Source: a virus
Taxonomy: Duplodnaviria > Caudoviricetes
DNA length: 64,000 nucleotides
Direction: 5' to 3' (one strand)
Virus record (IMG/VR): IMGVR_UViG_3300028833_000087
Location: 57,434-121,433 of that record
The position numbers and the translations under genes were made by a program. The notes under the pieces were generated by a model. That model ran no database searches. It saw nothing but the letters and a program-made list of their open reading frames with translations, and was not told the DNA's origin. Below are positions 33,400 to 49,268 of this stretch, in pieces. Numbering within the stretch: position 1 is the first letter of the stretch; every line of letters starts with the position of its first letter.

Positions 33400-34497
33400 A
33401 TGAAAGTTCTGCTTATAGGTATTGGTGCTGCTGGTAATAAAGCTGTAGTTCAAGCTGTAGAAGATAAGGTTATTGCTGAAGAAGATTCTATTATTATTAA
33501 TTCTACTGATAAAGATTTCCCAAAAGAATTTAATGGAAAGAAAATGATTTTATCTCCTAATAATCAGGGATGTGGTAAAGAAAGAGCAACTGCCTATGCT
33601 TTTACTAAAGCTCTAATTGAAAATGATACTCTTAATATTGATTGTTCTAAATATAATACAGTAATTGTTTGTGCATCTGTTGAAGGTGGTACAGGATCTG
33701 GTTCAGCTCCTTTGATTGCTAAATACTTTAAGCATGTCCATAATAGAAATGTACATGTGATTGCTTTTATTGGATTTGAAGATGATCCTAGAGGATTATC
33801 AAATACTGTAGAATTCTTTAAAGAATTAGAATCTGATCTTATTGTACAGACTATTAGAAATTCTTCTTTTATGAAACAAGCTGGTGGTAATAAGTTTAAA
33901 GCTGAAGAATTAGCTAATAAAGAAATGAGCAAGAGAATTAAGATTATTACTGGTCAGCAGTTTCTAAATTCTGAACAGAATATTGATGATACTGATATTC
34001 TTAAAGTATCAAATACTGCAGGATATATGACTGTAGAAGAAAAGTATTTAGATAAGAATTTAGAAACTGTAGAAGATTTTAATAAAGTGGTTAAGAATAT
34101 GATTTATAATTCTCACTCTATTAAATCTAATTCTCCTAAGGCTATTCGTATTGGTGTTATTCTTAATATTGAACCTGGTTCAGAAGATGCTATTGATTAT
34201 ACATTTACTGATATCACTGAAGCATATGGTAATCCTTATGAAAAATATCTTCAGAAACAATGGGATGGTAATAAAGAATATATTCAGTGGATTGTATCTG
34301 GTATGCAGATGCCGTTAGATGAGATTAAAGAGATTTATGATAGATATCTTGCTGAATCTGATAAGGTACAGAAAGACGCTGATACTTTCTTTAAAACAAT
34401 GGAAACAATGCAGATGGATAGTAGTAATTCTAGATTCGATATGATTAAACCTGAAGAAAAGAAAATGAGCAAAGATGCATTTTTAAAGAATCTATAA
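33400..34497 (+). CDS. Tubulin/FtsZ family GTPase (PhuZ/TubZ-like)
   Basis: GIGAAGNK, GCGKE, GGTGSG signature, IDDTD T7-like loop. Confidence 0.9.
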   Translation: MKVLLIGIGAAGNKAVVQAVEDKVIAEEDSIIINSTDKDFPKEFNGKKMILSPNNQGCGKERATAYAFTKALIENDTLNIDCSKYNTVIVCASVEGGTGSGSAPLIAKYFKHVHNRNVHVIAFIGFEDDPRGLSNTVEFFKELESDLIVQTIRNSSFMKQAGGNKFKAEELANKEMSKRIKIITGQQFLNSEQNIDDTDILKVSNTAGYMTVEEKYLDKNLETVEDFNKVVKNMIYNSHSIKSNSPKAIRIGVILNIEPGSEDAIDYTFTDITEAYGNPYEKYLQKQWDGNKEYIQWIVSGMQMPLDEIKEIYDRYLAESDKVQKDADTFFKTMETMQMDSSNSRFDMIKPEEKKMSKDAFLKNL

Positions 34498-34502
34498 TTA
34501 AA

Positions 34503-34528
34503 ACCCTGGACGAATATTCGTCCAGGGT
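34503..34528 (+). terminator. Terminator after tubulin gene
   Basis: ACCCTGGACGAATATTCGTCCAGGGT palindrome. Confidence 0.75.
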
Positions 34529-34542
34529 AATATATTAAATAA

Positions 34543-34555
34543 TAATATATTATAA
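34543..34555 (+). promoter_or_regulatory. Putative early promoter driving array 1
   Basis: TAATATATTATAA, one mismatch to window-wide motif. Confidence 0.6.
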
Positions 34556-34579: not shown

Positions 34580-35093
34580 AGTAATTGTGTAGTTGCGTAC
34601 TACGATGTGCGGTTAGGCTAAGTATATGCTTTGTATTGTGCGGTAGAGCGATGTGGTGTATATGTATAGTAGTGTATTATTTTAGTTCAGTAGAGTAAAG
34701 TAAATGTGAAGTGAAGTGCTGAAACTTGTAGTGTGGCATATGTAAGGTTTGACAATGTATTGTCGAGTAAATGTATAGTGAAGTATGGTAACGCCTAGTC
34801 AAGTACAGTAGTGTAAATGCATAGTCGAGTCCTGTGTCGTAAATGTATTGCCAGGTAGTATGGTGTACTAGTATAGTCACTTACTGCTCAGTATAGTCAA
34901 GTAAATGTATTGTGACGTAGCATAACGTTATGTTCAGCGGTGTAAATGTATAGCGACGTAAAGTTTAGTTCTGTAAATGTATGGTAATACACATTGTGCC
35001 AATACGTGGTAATGTATTTGTAAAGTAAGGTATATTTAAATTACGTGAAGTAAATGTAAAGTAAGGTTGGGTAAAGTATTATTAAGTAAATAT
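34580..35093 (+). repeat. Pentamer-register array 1 (about 14 units: AWATGY + 4-8 x NNNGY); putative guide RNA array
   Basis: Hexamers at 34583, 34624, 34660, 34702, 34738, 34769, 34815, 34841, (34867), 34903, 34944, 34975, 35016, 35052, 35088; spacings 5n+1 except one 42. Confidence 0.85.
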
Positions 35094-35106: not shown

Positions 35107-35412
35107 ATGGTGTTTATGCATGATATGAGAAGAAAGAAAGATCGAATTTGGCGTGAAGCCAAAGGAATCTGCTCTCATTGTGGTCATAAGATCTATAGTA
35201 TGAGAAATAAAACTTTAGATCATTTTATTCCAAAATCATGCTTCGGATCTTATGATGAGAGAAATTTATTTGCGCTATGTAAAAGATGTAATGAAGAAAG
35301 GGGGAATGCTCTTGTAGGACTTGATTACTATGTATATGCGTCTGAAAACAAAAAGATGCAAGCATATCAATACGGACTTGAATACAATACCAGAACATCT
35401 TCTATGCAGTAA
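35107..35412 (+). CDS. Small HNH endonuclease embedded between arrays 1 and 2
   Basis: CSHCG...TLDHFIPKS..G....NL..LCKRCN; AAGGAG SD. Confidence 0.9.
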   Translation: MVFMHDMRRKKDRIWREAKGICSHCGHKIYSMRNKTLDHFIPKSCFGSYDERNLFALCKRCNEERGNALVGLDYYVYASENKKMQAYQYGLEYNTRTSSMQ

Positions 35413-35745
35413 ATGTATAGTGTAGTGAAGTGGAGCCCAGTAAATGCAAGTTAAAGTCTAGTATCATATGGTATAGTACAGTAAAGTATATGTAAAGTAC
35501 GGTGTAGTAAAATACAGTAAATGTTTTGTAGGGTATTGTGCCATTTTGTGAAGTGATTGTATGGTGAAGTAGAGTACAGTAAATGTAAGGTGTAATGGAG
35601 TATGGTCTGGTAAAGTAGATGTGAGGTAACGCACAGTTTTGTGCTGTTGGATGATGTATATGTAAGGTGAGGCGTAGCAGTGCTGAGTCGTGTGGTGTAA
35701 TGGCGAAGTGGTGCAGAGTCATGCTTTGTGATGTAAAGTAATTGT
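35406..35745 (+). repeat. Pentamer-register array 2 (about 9 units)
   Basis: Hexamers at 35411, 35442, 35488, 35519, 35555, 35581, 35617, 35658, 35699, 35740; spacings 31,46,31,36,26,36,41,41,41. Confidence 0.9.
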
Positions 35746-35750
35746 TCGAT

Positions 35751-35790
35751 TATACAAGCATACTTACAATTTAGTAAGTATGCTTGTATA
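35751..35790 (+). terminator. 17-bp hairpin closing array 2
   Basis: TATACAAGCATACTTAC-aattta-GTAAGTATGCTTGTATA. Confidence 0.7.
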
Positions 35791-36803: not shown

Positions 36804-37694
36804 ATGAAAATTAAAGCTTTTAAAGGATTTAATCCTGATATGACTTGTAAAAAGTTTAAATTTGTTCCTGGCGTGGAATATAGTATGGATGAAGATAAAA
36901 TTAATTTGTGTACAAGAGGATTTCATTCTTGTATTATTCCTCTGCAATGTTTCAGCTATTACAAACCATTAGCAGGTGTATTTCATGAAGTAGAAATAGA
37001 TGGTGCTATGGAAATAGCAAAAGCTAATTCCAAGATAGTATCATCTAAAATTACTGTAGAAGAACATGAATTAGATTCTAAAGAAATAGTTAATGAAACT
37101 TATGATTGTATTGAGATGCTTACAGGTGATACAGATTATCACGATACAATATTAGAAGATCTTTCAGAAAAATTAAAAAATTCTAAAATTAAAGGATCTA
37201 TTAATGTTTCTAATGCTTATCGTTCTATAGCAGCATCTAATATAGATGATGATTTAGGAAATGGTTCTGTTATTAATACTGGCGGTAAATCTATTGCAGC
37301 ATCTGTTGGTAATGATAAATGCGTTGCTACATCTGATACTAATTCTATAGCTGCATCTGTTGGTAAAACAAATAATGTGATATCTGCTGGATCTAAATCT
37401 ATCGCTGCATCTATAGGAGATTATAATTTGGTAACTGCAGGTAATCAGGGTGTAATTGCAGTATCTGTTGGTGAGCAATGTAAAGTTATAGCTGAAAAAG
37501 CAGGTTCTATGGCTATTATTACTACAGATTCTATTGGAAAAGGAGCTTTAAATTCTTATCTTGTATTTGTAAATACAGTTAAGAATGCTGATGAAACTAC
37601 TATAGATAAAGTTATTACTATATTTATTGATGGTTCAAAATATCGTCCAAATACTTGGTATAAATTAGATAATGGTGTTGTAAAAGAAGCATAA
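36804..37694 (+). CDS. Hypothetical phage protein (DUF7666-like N-terminus, S-I-A-A-S-V-G repeats)
   Basis: KAFKGF..DMTC..F, GFHSC..PL.CF.YY; low-complexity repeats; WYKL C-terminus. Confidence 0.75.
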   Translation: MKIKAFKGFNPDMTCKKFKFVPGVEYSMDEDKINLCTRGFHSCIIPLQCFSYYKPLAGVFHEVEIDGAMEIAKANSKIVSSKITVEEHELDSKEIVNETYDCIEMLTGDTDYHDTILEDLSEKLKNSKIKGSINVSNAYRSIAASNIDDDLGNGSVINTGGKSIAASVGNDKCVATSDTNSIAASVGKTNNVISAGSKSIAASIGDYNLVTAGNQGVIAVSVGEQCKVIAEKAGSMAIITTDSIGKGALNSYLVFVNTVKNADETTIDKVITIFIDGSKYRPNTWYKLDNGVVKEA

Positions 37695-37821: not shown

Positions 37822-38586
37822 ATGGTTGAAGAACAGGTAATGAAGGTGCGTTTAACGTTCCTGCAGGATGTGCTGGGAACACAGCCCACAGACTCAAAGA
37901 TCTATGAGTCCTTTCTGGCTACCAAGATGAGAAAAGAAATGGAGAAATCTGGGTACAAGGAAGAGAAGATCGATGAGAAGATCAATAAGGGTATGGAAGC
38001 ACTTCCGAACAACGAAGATGGGGAATTCTATCGTGATGGCGTTACGGTATTTCCTCGTCTGAAGATCAAGGAAACCGGAGAAGAGATCCCGGCTATTGAA
38101 GGATACTTACTCAAAGGATTCTTCAAGAATGCATGCTGGGCATGTGCAAAAGCAGATGGATTGTCCGCAGAACTGTCAGCTTACAAAAAGTACATTGACA
38201 ATATGACTGATGTAAATGAGATCAGTCCTATCATTGTCAACGACGATGTAAAGAAATACATGGAGGAGCATAAAGGAACTCTTCCTTTATTTCAGCGTCC
38301 GATCAGAATTTCCGACAGAAATGGTGAGCGTGTAGCGCTTGCTTGCTCAGAGTATGTACCGGCTGGTAGCTATATCGATTTTGAAATCACAGCTATGTCT
38401 GAAGAGGCATTGAATTTCGTTATCGAATGGCTCAACTACGGCAAGCATAATGGACTTTGCTGCTGGAGAAATTCTGGTAAAGGAAAGTTTGACTGGATCG
38501 ATCTTGATCTTGGTGCTAAGAGGGAGATTAATCCCAAAGCAATCAAGAAAAAAGGTAAGAAAAAGAAAGCTGACGATGAGGAATAA
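37822..38586 (+). CDS. Stand-alone Cas7/Csm3-like RAMP protein (putative guide-binding effector)
   Basis: N-terminal strand MKVRLTFLQDVLG; PAIEGYLLKGFFKNA (cf. PxIPGSSLKG); EYVPAGSYIDFEI (cf. ExVPxGxxFxF); C-terminal Gly loop GLCCWRNSGKGKF. Confidence 0.75.
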   Translation: MVEEQVMKVRLTFLQDVLGTQPTDSKIYESFLATKMRKEMEKSGYKEEKIDEKINKGMEALPNNEDGEFYRDGVTVFPRLKIKETGEEIPAIEGYLLKGFFKNACWACAKADGLSAELSAYKKYIDNMTDVNEISPIIVNDDVKKYMEEHKGTLPLFQRPIRISDRNGERVALACSEYVPAGSYIDFEITAMSEEALNFVIEWLNYGKHNGLCCWRNSGKGKFDWIDLDLGAKREINPKAIKKKGKKKKADDEE

Positions 38587-38619: not shown

Positions 38620-38654
38620 AATGCTGGGTGGAGAAATCTACCCAGCATTTTTTC
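38620..38654 (+). terminator. Intrinsic terminator between RAMP gene and array 3
   Basis: AATGCTGGGT-N10-ACCCAGCATT followed by U-tract. Confidence 0.75.
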
Positions 38655-38663
38655 TAAATCCTT

Positions 38664-39040
38664 GTATATGTAAGGCAGAGTGTGGTATCATCGTGTGTGG
38701 TAAATGCAAGGTGCTGCCAGGTAGAGTACATTATGTGTATAGTGCCGTCGAGTTATGTATATGTGTAGTATAGCATATTCCGGTCATGTATAGTATATAT
38801 GAGGTAACGTATATGTAAGGTGCAATCAGGTGAAGTGGTATTTCGTACAGTATATGTATTGTGAAGTGAAATACGGTCGGGTTTGGTTTAGTATATGCAA
38901 GGTGGGGTTAAGTATAGCTCCGTCGCGTATGGTAACGTATATGTGAGGTTTAGCGTAGCGCCGTGAGATATCGTATATGTGAGGCGGGGTATAGTGCAGT
39001 CTAGTAATGGTAAAGCTATGTGTAATTTGGTGATGTGCAT
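38664..39040 (+). repeat. Pentamer-register array 3 (about 11 units)
   Basis: Hexamers at 38666, 38702, 38733, 38759, 38795, 38811, 38852, 38893, 38939, 38975, 39006; spacings 36,31,26,36,16,41,41,46,36,31. Confidence 0.9.
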
Positions 39041-39058
39041 CATATTGCTAAGCACATT

Positions 39059-39097
39059 AATATGGTAGAGGGTTGTAATAACCCTCTACCATATTTT
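39059..39097. terminator. Long hairpin closing array 3 and the nrd operon
   Basis: AATATGGTAGAGGGTT-gtaat-AACCCTCTACCATATT. Confidence 0.75.
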
Positions 39098-43148: not shown

Positions 43149-44204
43149 ATGAAAATTAAAGATAATTATGAAAATGAAAACTTGTATAATATTGATTTTA
43201 GCGGTAAAAATCTTGAAAATGTTAATTTTATAAATTGCACAATTGTTAATGTTAATTTTGAAGGTGCAAATTTACGTTCAGTTAAGTTTTATAGTTCGAA
43301 ATTAATGTCAGTCTATTTTGATAAAGCCATAATGTATCGCTGCGGTTTTTATAATTGCAAAATATATGATACTACTTTTGATAGTGCAGAAATAAGTGAT
43401 ACAGATTTTGCTTCAAATGATGCTTCAAAATTAGATTTTTCGAATTCAAAAATAGTATCATCTAATTTTAAATATCTAAGATGTCCAGATCATATTATAT
43501 TTAATTATGCAATTTTAAATGATATTAATTTAGCTTATTGCAATTTGCTTCATGGATCATTTGATTATACAGATATATCTGGTTCAGATTTTACAGGTGC
43601 TTTATTAATCGGTGCATCATTTAATAAAGCTCGCATTGCAGATACTTCATTTAAAGCAGCAAATTTACATGGAGCATTTTTTACTAAAACTAATCTTATT
43701 AATTGTGATTTATGTTTCAGTAATCTTGCAGAAGCTATGATACACTATTGGACTATATTTAAATGTAATTTAATTGGTGCTAATCTGTGTAAATGTGATT
43801 TGAAAAGCAGAAAAGGACGTAATTATATTTCATTGGCTGAATATAGGAAAGGAAAGATTCTGAGTGAAAATATTATAGGTTATAAGAAATGCAGAAGCTA
43901 TGATAAAATTTATCATTCATTAGATGATTGTAGAATTGCTATGGTGACTCTTGAAATACCAAGAGGAGCAATTGTATTTTCTATCAATGGTAATAAATGT
44001 AGAACTAACAGGGCAAAAGTTTTAGATATAGTTGATATTAACGGAAACAAAGTACCAAGAGCTAGATCATATATGGGCGAATTAACTTATTATGTAGGTG
44101 ATGATTTTACAATATATGATTTTGATTGTGAGTACAATAATGAATGCTCTACAGGTATACATTTCTTTATGACTAAAGAAGAAGCAGAAAAGTATAGAGG
44201 ATAA
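43149..44204 (+). CDS. Pentapeptide repeat protein with DUF5758-like C-terminus
   Basis: xxFxx repeats; LEIP.GA..FS.NG.KCR...GIHFF. Confidence 0.85.
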   Translation: MKIKDNYENENLYNIDFSGKNLENVNFINCTIVNVNFEGANLRSVKFYSSKLMSVYFDKAIMYRCGFYNCKIYDTTFDSAEISDTDFASNDASKLDFSNSKIVSSNFKYLRCPDHIIFNYAILNDINLAYCNLLHGSFDYTDISGSDFTGALLIGASFNKARIADTSFKAANLHGAFFTKTNLINCDLCFSNLAEAMIHYWTIFKCNLIGANLCKCDLKSRKGRNYISLAEYRKGKILSENIIGYKKCRSYDKIYHSLDDCRIAMVTLEIPRGAIVFSINGNKCRTNRAKVLDIVDINGNKVPRARSYMGELTYYVGDDFTIYDFDCEYNNECSTGIHFFMTKEEAEKYRG

Positions 44205-47627: not shown

Positions 47628-49268
47628 ATGAAAGAAAAACAAAAATTCACATCAGGACAAATAGAGGAAATAATAAACGGTGTTTACTCAAAAGTAGACA
47701 TCTATCAGTATGCGGACTTTTTCTTAACTAAAAATCAAATGAAACAAATTCGTTTAGGATTAGAATCTGGTATAGATACTTCTATATATAATAAGAGGTA
47801 TTATAATTCTGATCAAATGGAACAATTAAGACTTGGTTTAGAAGAAGGACTAGATGTATCTATTTATGCTGATAGATTTTTTAATGAATATAAAATGGCA
47901 GAAATAAGAAAATGTCTAAAAAATGGTATTGATCCTGATATCTTTATAAACCAACATCATAATTTTGATAAATATCAGATAAAGTTATTAAGAAAAGGAT
48001 TAGAAAAAGGATTAGATATATCTGCATATGCAGATCCGGATTACACCATACAAGAAATGGAACAAATTATGGATGGACTTATGCATGGTATTGATATATC
48101 TGTTTATATTAGAGGATTTAATTTTGAGCAGATGAAAGAAATAAGGAAAGGTATGCAAGATGGATTGGATATATCAATTTATGCTAAAAAAGAATATAAT
48201 GATTTGCAGATGCTTATGTTACGCAAAGGATTAGAATACGGAATCGATACACAATATTATTCTGATCCAAATTTTAATTATATGCAGATGGGAGAAATAC
48301 GATATGGATTACAAGCTGGCATCGATATTTTTCAATATAATAAAATTGAATATCCTTGGTGGGTAATGAGAGAGACGAGAGAAAGGCTAATTTTAGAGAA
48401 AAGATTCAATAATCTTAAAAATTTTAAATTTAGCAATTTTCTTGAAGTTCAAAAAAAGAAAATATTTTATGGTTTGAATAAATTAAGAGATATATCGTTT
48501 TTTGCAGATCCAAGACTTACTGTAGAACAGATGCAAGAGATTATTATCGGTATTGAAGAAGGAGTAAATGTATCTTTTTTCTGTAGTCATAATATCTCCG
48601 CTTCAAAAATGAAAAGTATGAGAATTACTTTATTTAAAAATAAAGCGGAATATCCGATAATTGATCAGTACGGTAATAGATATTACGATAGCAATCTTAA
48701 ATATAAAATTGAAATCGAAAGGCAAATGGAACAAATATGTCTTGGAATATCAAAACAACTTGATGTATCTATTTATGCAGATCCAAAATTTACTGCAGAG
48801 CAGATGAGAGAAATCCGAGAGGGTTTGGAAGAAGGATTAAATGTATCTTTATATAACAATCAAAAATTTAATGCAGATCAGATGAGAGAAATCCGAGAGG
48901 GTTTGAAACAACATCTTGATGTATCAATATATGTAAATCCAAAATTTACTGCAGAGCAGATGAGAGAAATCCGAGAGGGTTTGGAAGAAGGATTAAATGT
49001 ATCTATTTATGTAGATCAAAAATTTAATGCAGATCAGATGAGAGAAATCCGAGAGGGTTTGAAACAACATCTTGATGTATCAATATATGTAAATCCAAAA
49101 TTTACTGCAGAGCAGATGAGAGAAATACGAATAGGTTTGGAGCAACGTCTTGATGTATCAATATATAATAGTCTAAAATATAATGCTGAAGAGATGTATA
49201 ATATAAGGACAGAAATGCATTATAAAGATTTATTTAGACGTTATAATAATGGCGGTAAAAGAAATTAG
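47628..49268 (+). CDS. 26-aa tandem repeat protein
   Basis: IYADPKFTAEQMREIREGLEEGLDVS-type repeats throughout. Confidence 0.85.
   Translation: MKEKQKFTSGQIEEIINGVYSKVDIYQYADFFLTKNQMKQIRLGLESGIDTSIYNKRYYNSDQMEQLRLGLEEGLDVSIYADRFFNEYKMAEIRKCLKNGIDPDIFINQHHNFDKYQIKLLRKGLEKGLDISAYADPDYTIQEMEQIMDGLMHGIDISVYIRGFNFEQMKEIRKGMQDGLDISIYAKKEYNDLQMLMLRKGLEYGIDTQYYSDPNFNYMQMGEIRYGLQAGIDIFQYNKIEYPWWVMRETRERLILEKRFNNLKNFKFSNFLEVQKKKIFYGLNKLRDISFFADPRLTVEQMQEIIIGIEEGVNVSFFCSHNISASKMKSMRITLFKNKAEYPIIDQYGNRYYDSNLKYKIEIERQMEQICLGISKQLDVSIYADPKFTAEQMREIREGLEEGLNVSLYNNQKFNADQMREIREGLKQHLDVSIYVNPKFTAEQMREIREGLEEGLNVSIYVDQKFNADQMREIREGLKQHLDVSIYVNPKFTAEQMREIRIGLEQRLDVSIYNSLKYNAEEMYNIRTEMHYKDLFRRYNNGGKRN
48781..49170 (+). 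repeat. Near-perfect 156-bp tandem duplication
   Basis: ATCCAAAATTTACTGCAGAGCAGATGAGAGAAAT at 48781, 48937, 49093. Confidence 0.85.

What the first reader, a model, noticed from the sequence alone, without database searches (positions are those of the whole stretch)
35406..35745. Array grammar: invariant 5-nt register with 5n+1 unit lengths
Seen: array 2 parses as aaatgt-atagt-gtagt-gaagt-ggagc-ccagt / aaatgc-aagtt-aaagt-ctagt-atcat-atggt-atagt-acagt-aaagt / atatgt-aaagt-acggt-gtagt-aaaat-acagt and so on. Across all three arrays the hexamer spacings are 16, 26, 31, 36, 41 or 46 nt, with a single 42. Positions 4-5 of each pentamer are almost always GT/GC, positions 1-3 vary, the first pentamer after the hexamer is biased (ATA/AAG/ATT/GAG), and I saw no two identical units. 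Inference: this is repeat information interleaved with spacer information rather than a decaying satellite; the register-breaking hexamer may mark processing or filament boundaries.
Basis: seen in the sequence. Interest (0 to 1): 0.88.

Follow-up and report, generated by a model that had tools for sequence, protein, structure and literature searches.

The report
Phage VIPR guide-RNA arrays, hexamer-punctuated
The odd five-letter rhythm is real and is most likely a set of guide-RNA arrays of a VIPR system, a CRISPR-related phage weapon first described in 2026, so it is a clear new example of a known kind and not a new kind of element.

Summary
Three plus-strand non-coding arrays (about 34589-35077, 35409-35745 and 38664-39036) are chains of NNNG(T/C) pentamers. 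The only register break is a +1 step, usually A-W-A-T-G-Y. I counted 197 five-base steps, 32 six-base steps and no four-base steps. Positions 1-3 carry 1.83-1.90 bits of entropy and positions 4-5 carry 0.68 bits. No two units are identical.

The 254-aa gene directly upstream of array 3 (37822-38586) folds as a Cas7/Csm3-like RAMP protein. Its family sits beside same-strand pentamer arrays in 77 of 80 viral contigs. All five contigs found by the DNA pattern alone also encode it.

This matches the published VIPR systems: a Vipr filament with one protomer per five-base repeat, the YNNNG and WGT/NN repeat variants, and "staggered" arrays.

Three things remain untested:
- Processing at the hexamer.
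- Targets: none found in the phage's own contig or in IMG/VR.

This scan has already reported VIPR arrays on other DNA, including this protein family. Verdict: new member of a known kind, of moderate interest.

The parts
34589..35077 (+). Array 1: about 15 units. Each is a six-base delimiter (mostly AWATGY) followed by 2-8 NNNGY pentamers. It lies after terminator 34503-34528 and an exact TATATTATAAA motif at 34546.
35107..35412 (+). 101-aa HNH endonuclease gene between arrays 1 and 2. Its TAA stop is part of the first GTAAATGT delimiter of array 2. It is either a homing nuclease inserted in the array or a lineage-specific accessory nuclease; this is not resolved.
   Evidence: only weak similarity in 2 of about 88 related loci
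35409..35745 (+). Array 2 (the finding): 9 units, 63 steps (55 x 5 nt, 8 x 6 nt).
35751..35790 (+). 17-bp perfect hairpin that closes array 2 (terminator or 3' end structure).
36804..37694 (+). 296-aa DUF7666 / phrog_4433 protein, a weak candidate accessory (vap) gene. Homologs lie within 1-3 kb of the vipr-like gene in 11 of about 88 loci.
37822..38586 (+). vipr-like gene: a 254-aa stand-alone Cas7/Csm3-like RAMP protein with G-loop GLCCWRNSGKGKF. Its GC content is 42-45% in a 29% GC genome.
   Evidence: AF2 pLDDT 89.5; Foldseek Csm3 E 4e-8, prob 1.0; VIA Z 12.7 to Csm3; profile hit to the type VII Cas7 G-loop; composition
38620..38653 (+). Hairpin plus T-run between the vipr-like gene and array 3.
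38664..39036 (+). Array 3: 11 units, 71 steps (61 x 5 nt, 10 x 6 nt). Delimiters are mostly ATATGY.
39059..39095 (+). 17-bp intrinsic terminator that closes array 3.

Best explanation
The three arrays are VIPR RNA (vrRNA) arrays, and the 254-aa gene at 37822-38586 is their Vipr protein.

Mechanism, inferred by analogy with the characterised SUSP1 system: the arrays are transcribed from the plus strand. Vipr protomers polymerise along the RNA, one per five-base repeat. They hold the fixed G-Y (the G2 and Y3 positions of the canonical GGY) and expose the variable bases, most likely N1N2. These pair with a gapped DNA target in which every third base is skipped, and binding silences a competing phage or mobile element.

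Here the repeat is the relaxed Y-NNN-G / NGY-NN dialect. The arrays are of the 'staggered' kind. Every 2-8 repeats a six-base step, A-W-A-T-G-Y followed by a biased A-W-R-G-Y pentamer, shifts the register by +1. This step most likely marks the boundary between adjacent short guides, as a processing site, a filament start or stop, or both. That gives about 35 different guides.

Shown here: the grammar, the RAMP fold, and the co-occurrence and co-orientation of gene and array. Inferred: transcription, processing at the hexamer, which bases pair, and the targets.
For: 1. Grammar: fixed G-Y, three high-entropy positions, only +1 steps, no identical units.

2. The adjacent 254-aa protein is a confident Cas7/Csm3-like RAMP. 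Its G-loop matches a type VII Cas7 at E 3.7e-4.

3. Its homologs flank arrays of the same grammar in contigs found by DNA pattern alone. All 5 such contigs encode it at E 1e-51 to 2e-91.

4. In 77 of 80 IMG/VR loci encoding the family, the strongest period-5 G signal lies within 1 kb of the gene (30% expected by length). In 76 of those 77 it is on the gene's strand. In those arrays 6-nt steps are the commonest non-5 step.

5. The published VIPR description fits: one Vipr protomer per pentamer, alternative YNNNG repeats, staggered arrays, loci without cas genes, mostly viral. WGT/NN motifs are also reported.

6. Profile-profile alignment to the SUSP1 Vipr family is collinear over 188 columns, with GxGQWRNSGKGRF aligned to GxGDWRPRFGRF. 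W178 and R179, which contact G2 and Y3, are kept. D177, which reads G1, is replaced, and G1 is the position relaxed in these arrays.

7. The N1N2 dinucleotide usage fits sense codon positions 1-2 best: -3.93 bits against -4.20 to -4.43 for other frames. N2N3 shows no such preference. This is what the wobble-skipping rule predicts.

8. The record has no Cas1 and a single vipr-like gene.
Against: Sequence-level homology to the experimentally studied Vipr is weak: hhalign probability 14-21%, E about 1e-3. The available structure libraries did not return a Vipr structure, so the fold evidence shows 'Cas7-like RAMP' and not 'Vipr'.

No target was found. The own 121-kb contig shows no excess of matches under ten pairing rules. 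IMG/VR hits for the two longest guides are at chance level and share no contig.

Units are short, 2-8 repeats or about 4-16 informative bases, against 9-16 repeats in SUSP1. It is unclear how a single unit could be specific. No per-unit 3' tail is present. Expression and RNA ends were not tested.
Confidence: 0.85

Rival explanations
1. The arrays are RNA partners of the RAMP protein but do not act as DNA-targeting guides. They could be an RNA scaffold or sponge, an RNA-targeting complex, or one long filament read through the delimiters instead of about 35 separate guides.
For: Gene-array association holds, but no targets were found. Units are unusually short. Top structural matches are the RNA-targeting Csm3 proteins.
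Against: The hypervariable positions and the lack of identical units argue for information content, not a scaffold. The codon-like N1N2 usage fits the published DNA-target rule. The G-loop residues that hold G2 and Y3 in SUSP1 Vipr are conserved.
Confidence: 0.08
2. The arrays act as double-stranded DNA. They would be a phased protein-binding array, for example a centromere for the neighbouring tubulin-like partition or positioning protein. GT would fall every half helical turn, with the +1 step keeping phase at about 10.3 bp per turn.
For: Array 1 starts 90 nt after a tubulin/FtsZ-family gene (33400-34497). Unit lengths of 31 nt for 6 steps give 10.3 bp per two steps.
Against: The tubulin gene has no counterpart in the related array-bearing loci; only the RAMP gene is shared. 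Arrays are co-oriented with the RAMP gene in 76 of 77 loci and are closed by plus-strand terminators, which points to an RNA. Known tubC centromeres use 12-bp iterons (from established knowledge, not tested here).
Confidence: 0.03
3. The arrays are a decaying pentanucleotide satellite without function.
For: Tandem Repeats Finder sees only weak period-5 and period-15/16 repeats here.
Against: Decay would blur all five positions equally and give indels of both signs. Instead two positions stay 85-87% fixed, three are near maximal entropy, and all register breaks are +1 at a conserved motif. The same grammar recurs beside one protein family whose members share only 27-40% identity with the window's protein.
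Confidence: 0.01

Closest known systems
VIPR 'staggered vrRNA arrays' with alternative YNNNG repeats (bioRxiv 10.64898/2026.04.26.720920, fig. S18 and methods)
   Same: Both have a stand-alone RAMP gene in a phage and five-base repeats with fixed G and Y and variable remaining bases. In both, adjacent guides abut with a one-base offset, there is no per-guide tail, and there are no cas genes.
   Different: The preprint text gives no delimiter sequence and says the staggered architecture was not confirmed by small-RNA sequencing. Here the delimiter is explicit: A-W-A-T-G-Y plus a biased first pentamer. Units hold only 2-8 repeats, there are three arrays (about 35 units), and an HNH gene sits inside the array region. 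I could not see the figure, so the equivalence is inferred from its legend.
Type II VIPR of Escherichia phage SUSP1 (Vipr agp039, PDB 36pp; vap1; four vrRNAs)
   Same: The protein is a RAMP with a GxGxWR G-loop, and the arrays have pentamer periodicity on the gene's strand in the flanking intergenic regions.
   Different: SUSP1 repeats are NNGGY with 9-16 repeats, and each guide has a structured 3' tail. Here G1 is relaxed (NNNGY), guides are shorter and tail-less, and vap1 is not found. Protein similarity is only at profile level (E about 1e-3).
Non-canonical VIPR clusters (WGT/NN, TGH/NN, GAC/NN) found by entropy periodicity (bioRxiv 10.64898/2026.10.21.760802)
   Same: The fixed trinucleotide here is (A>T=G>C)-G-T, close to WGT/NN, next to a Vipr-like fold.
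   Different: That paper describes runs of about 10 repeats and, in the text I read, does not mention +1 delimiters.
Class 1 CRISPR Cas7 backbone (Csm3/Cmr4) on crRNA
   Same: It has the same protein fold (Z 10-12.7), and the protomers polymerise along a guide RNA with periodic base flipping.
   Different: CRISPR uses a 6-nt period on a contiguous spacer flanked by 25-40-nt repeats, with Cas5, Cas6, Cas10 or Cas3 partners. None of these is present here.
TRAP (trp RNA-binding attenuation protein) binding sites
   Same: The RNA has a short fixed motif every 5 nt with occasional longer spacers, read by an oligomeric protein. This was my first lead, from memory.
   Different: TRAP reads 11 (G/U)AG triplets with one ring and has an unrelated fold. 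No TRAP-like gene was seen near the arrays, which sit beside a RAMP gene.

Membership tests
VIPR system | Stand-alone RAMP (Cas7-like) protein with RRM core, G-loop and thumb | tested here: met
   AF2 model pLDDT 89.5. Foldseek gave 135 PDB hits at E<=1e-3, the top ones all Csm3/Cas7. VIA Z is 12.7 (rmsd 3.6, 166 aligned) to Csm3. The G-loop matches a type VII Cas7.
VIPR system | Homology to an experimentally characterised Vipr (SUSP1 agp039 / PDB 36pp) | tested here: inconclusive
   hhalign of A1 against SUSP1 Vipr gives prob 14%, E 0.0019. Against its family A2 it gives prob 21.5%, E 0.001, 188 collinear columns with aligned G-loops. 36pp is in the sequence copy of the PDB but did not appear in the fold libraries searched.
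VIPR system | Tandem five-base repeats with fixed and hypervariable positions in the intergenic DNA flanking the gene, on its strand | tested here: met
   for the window. In 77 of 80 related loci the period-5 signal is within 1 kb of the gene, and in 76 of those 77 it is on the same strand.
VIPR system | Viral genome, minimal locus, no CRISPR array or adaptation genes | tested here: met
   The record is a virus record, 49% complete. There is no Cas1, no Rfam CRISPR or other family, and no 25-40-nt repeat-spacer array. Half of the genome is unseen.
VIPR system | Accessory vap gene next to vipr | tested here: inconclusive
   The DUF7666 protein (36804-37694) recurs near vipr in 11 of about 88 loci. 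HNH recurs weakly in 2. The 297-aa neighbour has no hits.
VIPR system | Arrays transcribed, processed and bound by Vipr | not testable with these tools
Only plus-strand terminators and hairpins support transcription.
VIPR system | Variable bases match DNA targets under the 1-nt skip rule | tested here: inconclusive
   The own contig shows no excess of matches under 10 rules. IMG/VR hits for two 8-repeat guides are at chance level with no shared contig. A two-unit pattern found nothing. N1N2 usage is codon-position-1-2-like.
VIPR type II (SUSP1-like) | GGY/NN repeats, 9-16 per guide, each followed by a conserved structured 3' tail | tested here: not met
   The G1 position is 43% A, 23% G, 23% T. 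Units have 2-8 repeats and no tails; there are only array-terminal hairpins. Compare the SUSP1 sequence.
CRISPR-Cas (class 1) | Repeat-spacer array with 25-40-nt direct repeats, plus Cas5, Cas6 and large-subunit genes | tested here: not met
   No such repeats. No Cas1. Neighbours carry no cas domains.

The most novel reading that the evidence does not exclude
The delimiter may not be just a cut site. It could define a distinct VIPR operating mode in which very short guides (4-16 informative bases) act cooperatively. Alternatively the filament may read through the +1 step, so that a whole 60-95-repeat array recognises one long or composite target. The embedded HNH gene might then serve as a nuclease arm. 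This would be a combinatorial or long-range version of the non-contiguous code in giant gut phages.
Probability: 0.12. Interest if true: 0.65.

Novelty: new member of a known kind. Interest (0 to 1): 0.35.

Why it matters
VIPR systems were described only in 2026, and the staggered array architecture has, according to the preprint, not yet been confirmed experimentally.

This locus gives a clean, explicit grammar for that architecture: a fixed G-Y, three free positions, and only +1 breaks at A-W-A-T-G-Y followed by a biased pentamer. The same grammar holds across at least 80 viral loci of one Vipr clade. This clade includes 240-280-kb jumbo phages that carry kilobases of array.

The grammar offers a simple rule for annotating such arrays. 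It also gives a concrete processing site, GT^AWATGY, to test by small-RNA sequencing. Finally, it poses a question about specificity, because the guides are much shorter than those studied so far.

It does not reveal a new kind of system.

Tried and rejected
**Leads that changed or fell away**
- A Fourier period-5 scan in 200-nt windows missed the arrays because the +1 steps scramble the phase. What it flagged instead was a pentapeptide-repeat gene.
- TRAP-like RNA binding and a tubulin centromere were my first ideas. I dropped both once the RAMP gene was found.

**Searches that found nothing**
- Rfam: no family in the window.
- Nucleotide and protein searches of the phage collection: no relatives of the region or of the tubulin gene. 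The RAMP gene gave only four unannotated faecal phage records.
- A hexamer-only IMG/VR pattern gave mostly chance hits and ordinary tandem repeats.
- Pfam, PHROGs, PADLOC and PDB sequence searches do not recognise the 254-aa or the 297-aa protein.

**Close relatives out of reach**
Whole-unit gain or loss between orthologous arrays was therefore not tested.

**Target searches**
- The own contig was searched under ten pairing rules.
- Two single guides and one two-unit pattern were scanned in IMG/VR, with follow-up enrichment tests. All stayed at chance level.

**Other checks**
- A promoter motif noted by other readers (TATATTATAAA) is not enriched above shuffles in this AT-rich window, although one exact copy lies at 34546.
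- The fold libraries did not return the Vipr structure 36pp, so no direct structural comparison with Vipr was possible.

Full report
**What is there**

The window belongs to a 121,433-bp, 29% GC virus record that CheckV rates 49% complete. An identical copy of the key protein is on a 236-kb contig elsewhere, so this is probably a jumbo phage.

Between 34.5 and 39.1 kb lie three non-coding, G+T-rich, C-poor stretches on the plus strand. Array 1 follows a tubulin-like gene and a terminator. Array 2, the finding, starts at the stop codon of a 101-aa HNH gene and ends in a 17-bp hairpin. Array 3 follows a 254-aa gene and ends in a strong terminator.

**The observation**

Splitting the sequence at A[AT]ATG[CT] shows runs of NNNGT pentamers after each hexamer. 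A dynamic-programming parse that may take steps of 4-7 nt uses 197 steps of 5 and 32 of 6, and none of 4 or 7. With equal penalties for all non-5 steps the result is 194 x 5 and 31 x 6, plus four odd steps in a degenerate part of array 1. Chain scores are 68-87 against about 5 for shuffles.

Autocorrelation of G[TC] peaks at lags 5, 10 and 15 and leaks only to 11, 16 and 21. Position 4 is 87% G and position 5 is 85% T plus 14% C. Positions 1-3 have 1.83-1.90 bits of entropy.

The six-base step is A-W-A-T-G-Y, with some degenerate versions. These explain the long hexamer spacings (52, 57, 62, 77) and the single 42. The pentamer after the step is biased to A-W-R-G-Y, and the pentamer before it always ends in GT. 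The parse gives 35 units of 2-8 pentamers, none identical. Nowhere else in the record does this signal occur.

Uniform drift from one ancestral pentamer cannot give two fixed and three near-random positions with only +1 indels.

**What it is**

A DNA pattern built from the grammar alone found the same grammar in a few IMG/VR contigs. These include phage contigs of 117, 263 and 278 kb with quite different base composition. A blastp comparison of ORFs from seven such loci (six contigs) with the window's record gave one shared protein. This is the 254-aa gene at 37822-38586, 27-31% identical, lying next to the array in three of them. A profile search of five of the contigs found the protein in all five, at E 1e-51 to 2e-91.

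The family has at least 111 clusters in the large protein collection and no Pfam domain. It has at least 570 loci in IMG/VR. In 77 of the 80 loci kept, the strongest period-5 G signal lies within 1 kb of the gene, against 30% expected by length. In 76 of those 77 it is on the gene's strand. These arrays also move by 5-nt steps, with 6 nt as the main exception.

The AlphaFold model of the protein (pLDDT 89.5) matches Csm3/Cas7 RAMP proteins. Foldseek gives E 4e-8 at probability 1.0. VIA gives Z 12.7, with the next 25 rows nearly all Cas7-like. The family profile hits the glycine-rich loop of a type VII Cas7. The record has no Cas1, no CRISPR array and no second copy of the gene.

**Link to the literature**

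A look-up in this scan's earlier notes pointed to VIPR systems, and I then read the papers.

The discovery preprint (bioRxiv 10.64898/2026.04.26.720920) describes the following:
- phage-borne stand-alone RAMP proteins (Vipr);
- vrRNAs made of GGY/NN pentamers whose NN bases pair with DNA while every third target base is skipped;
- alternative NNNGG, YNNNG and NNNNG repeats;
- 'staggered arrays with overlapping vrRNAs', which were not among the architectures confirmed by small-RNA sequencing.

The structural preprint (10.64898/2026.04.26.720927) shows one protomer per repeat. G1 is read by H17 and D177, G2 by R138 and W178, and Y3 sits in a pocket that includes R179, C173 and T175. A later preprint reports WGT/NN and other non-canonical motifs next to Vipr-like folds (10.64898/2026.10.21.760802).

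Rotated by one base, the NNNGY unit here is YNNNG, that is NGY/NN with G1 relaxed.

I fetched SUSP1 and confirmed that its agp039 is the protein of PDB 36pp. I then compared profiles. The alignment is collinear over the whole length but weak (E about 1e-3, probability 14-21%). The G-loops align as GxGDWRPRFGRF against GxGQWRNSGKGRF. The Trp and Arg that hold G2 and Y3 are kept, while the Asp that reads G1 is lost. This agrees with an array that fixes G-Y and frees G1. This last point is an inference from a weak alignment.

**How it most likely works**

Shown here: the grammar, the RAMP fold, and the gene-array association and co-orientation.

Inferred from the SUSP1 work:
- The arrays are transcribed.
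- Vipr polymerises along them, one protomer per pentamer.
- The variable bases guide the filament to DNA of a competitor, which it silences.

The six-base step with its conserved sequence most likely separates adjacent guides, as a processing site, a filament boundary, or both.

The usage of N1N2 resembles sense codon positions 1-2 more than any other frame, while N2N3 shows no preference. This fits the wobble-skipping rule and suggests that N1N2 are the pairing bases. The proxy was the phage's own codon usage, so this is only suggestive.

**What remains open**

- No target was found. The own contig shows no excess of matches under ten pairing rules, consistent with the paper's report of no self-targeting. 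IMG/VR hits of the two longest guides are at chance level and share no contig. A two-unit pattern found nothing.
- The guides are short. With 4-16 informative bases per unit, single-guide searches have little power. This also raises the question of how such short guides achieve specificity.
- Expression, RNA ends and unit-wise evolution could not be examined.
- The role of the HNH gene inside the array region and of the DUF7666 neighbour is unresolved.

**Rivals**

- A DNA-level role, such as a centromere for the tubulin-like gene, is unlikely. The tubulin gene is not shared by other array-bearing loci, and the arrays follow the RAMP gene's strand.
- A decaying satellite is excluded by the position-specific conservation and the one-directional register shifts.
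- A non-guide RNA partner of the RAMP protein cannot be excluded, but it fits the hypervariability poorly.

**Verdict**

It belongs to a system that is already published, and earlier reports in this scan noted it on other genomes, including this protein family. I class it as a new member of a known kind.

What it adds is an explicit delimiter grammar for staggered vrRNA arrays, evidence that this grammar is clade-wide, and a concrete, testable processing site.

Noticed in passing
window 43149-44204 (+): A 351-aa ORF encodes a pentapeptide-repeat protein (A/N-L-x-x-x runs). Its 15-nt periodicity gave the strongest period-5 Fourier signal in the window and is unrelated to the arrays.
   Followed up: partly
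window 37822-38586: The vipr-like gene has 42-45% GC in a 29% GC genome, which suggests recent horizontal acquisition. The arrays are also GC-enriched (37-44%).
   Followed up: no
window residue N210 of the 254-aa protein; loci L167-L250: The base after the fixed G differs by clade: T in 9 loci including the window, C in about 67, and A/C in about 10. The G-loop residue two before GxGQWRN tracks this: R in 58 of 67 C-type loci, against H, N or K in 8 of the 9 T-type loci. That residue aligns with C173 of the SUSP1 Y3 pocket. The pattern may be confounded by phylogeny.
   Followed up: partly
L167:6119-10392 (IMGVR_UViG_3300035520_000350, 242,978 bp, 99% complete): A jumbo phage carries about 4.3 kb of NNNGT array (about 820 steps, roughly 120 units) just downstream of its vipr-like gene. 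The six-base steps are looser and A-rich (AANNGT).
   Followed up: partly
G001:C1:221626-222042 (-), contig of L143: A 263-kb phage contig has a second, much weaker match (E 1e-10) to the Vipr-family profile, about 28 kb from its main vipr-like gene. It may be a divergent paralogue.
   Followed up: no
window 33400-34497 (+): A tubulin/FtsZ-family gene (Pfam Tubulin, E 2.8e-10) has no detectable relative in the phage collection or in IMG/VR by the pattern search. It sits directly upstream of array 1.
   Followed up: partly
window 35107-35412 (+): A minimal 101-aa HNH nuclease lies between arrays 1 and 2. Its stop codon forms part of the next delimiter, which suggests either insertion into a formerly continuous array or recruitment as an accessory nuclease.
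   Followed up: partly
window 48754-49186: Tandem Repeats Finder reports a 78-nt / 156-nt tandem repeat (5.2 / 2.8 copies, 82-89% matches). It is a multiple of 3, so it is probably a coding repeat.
   Followed up: no
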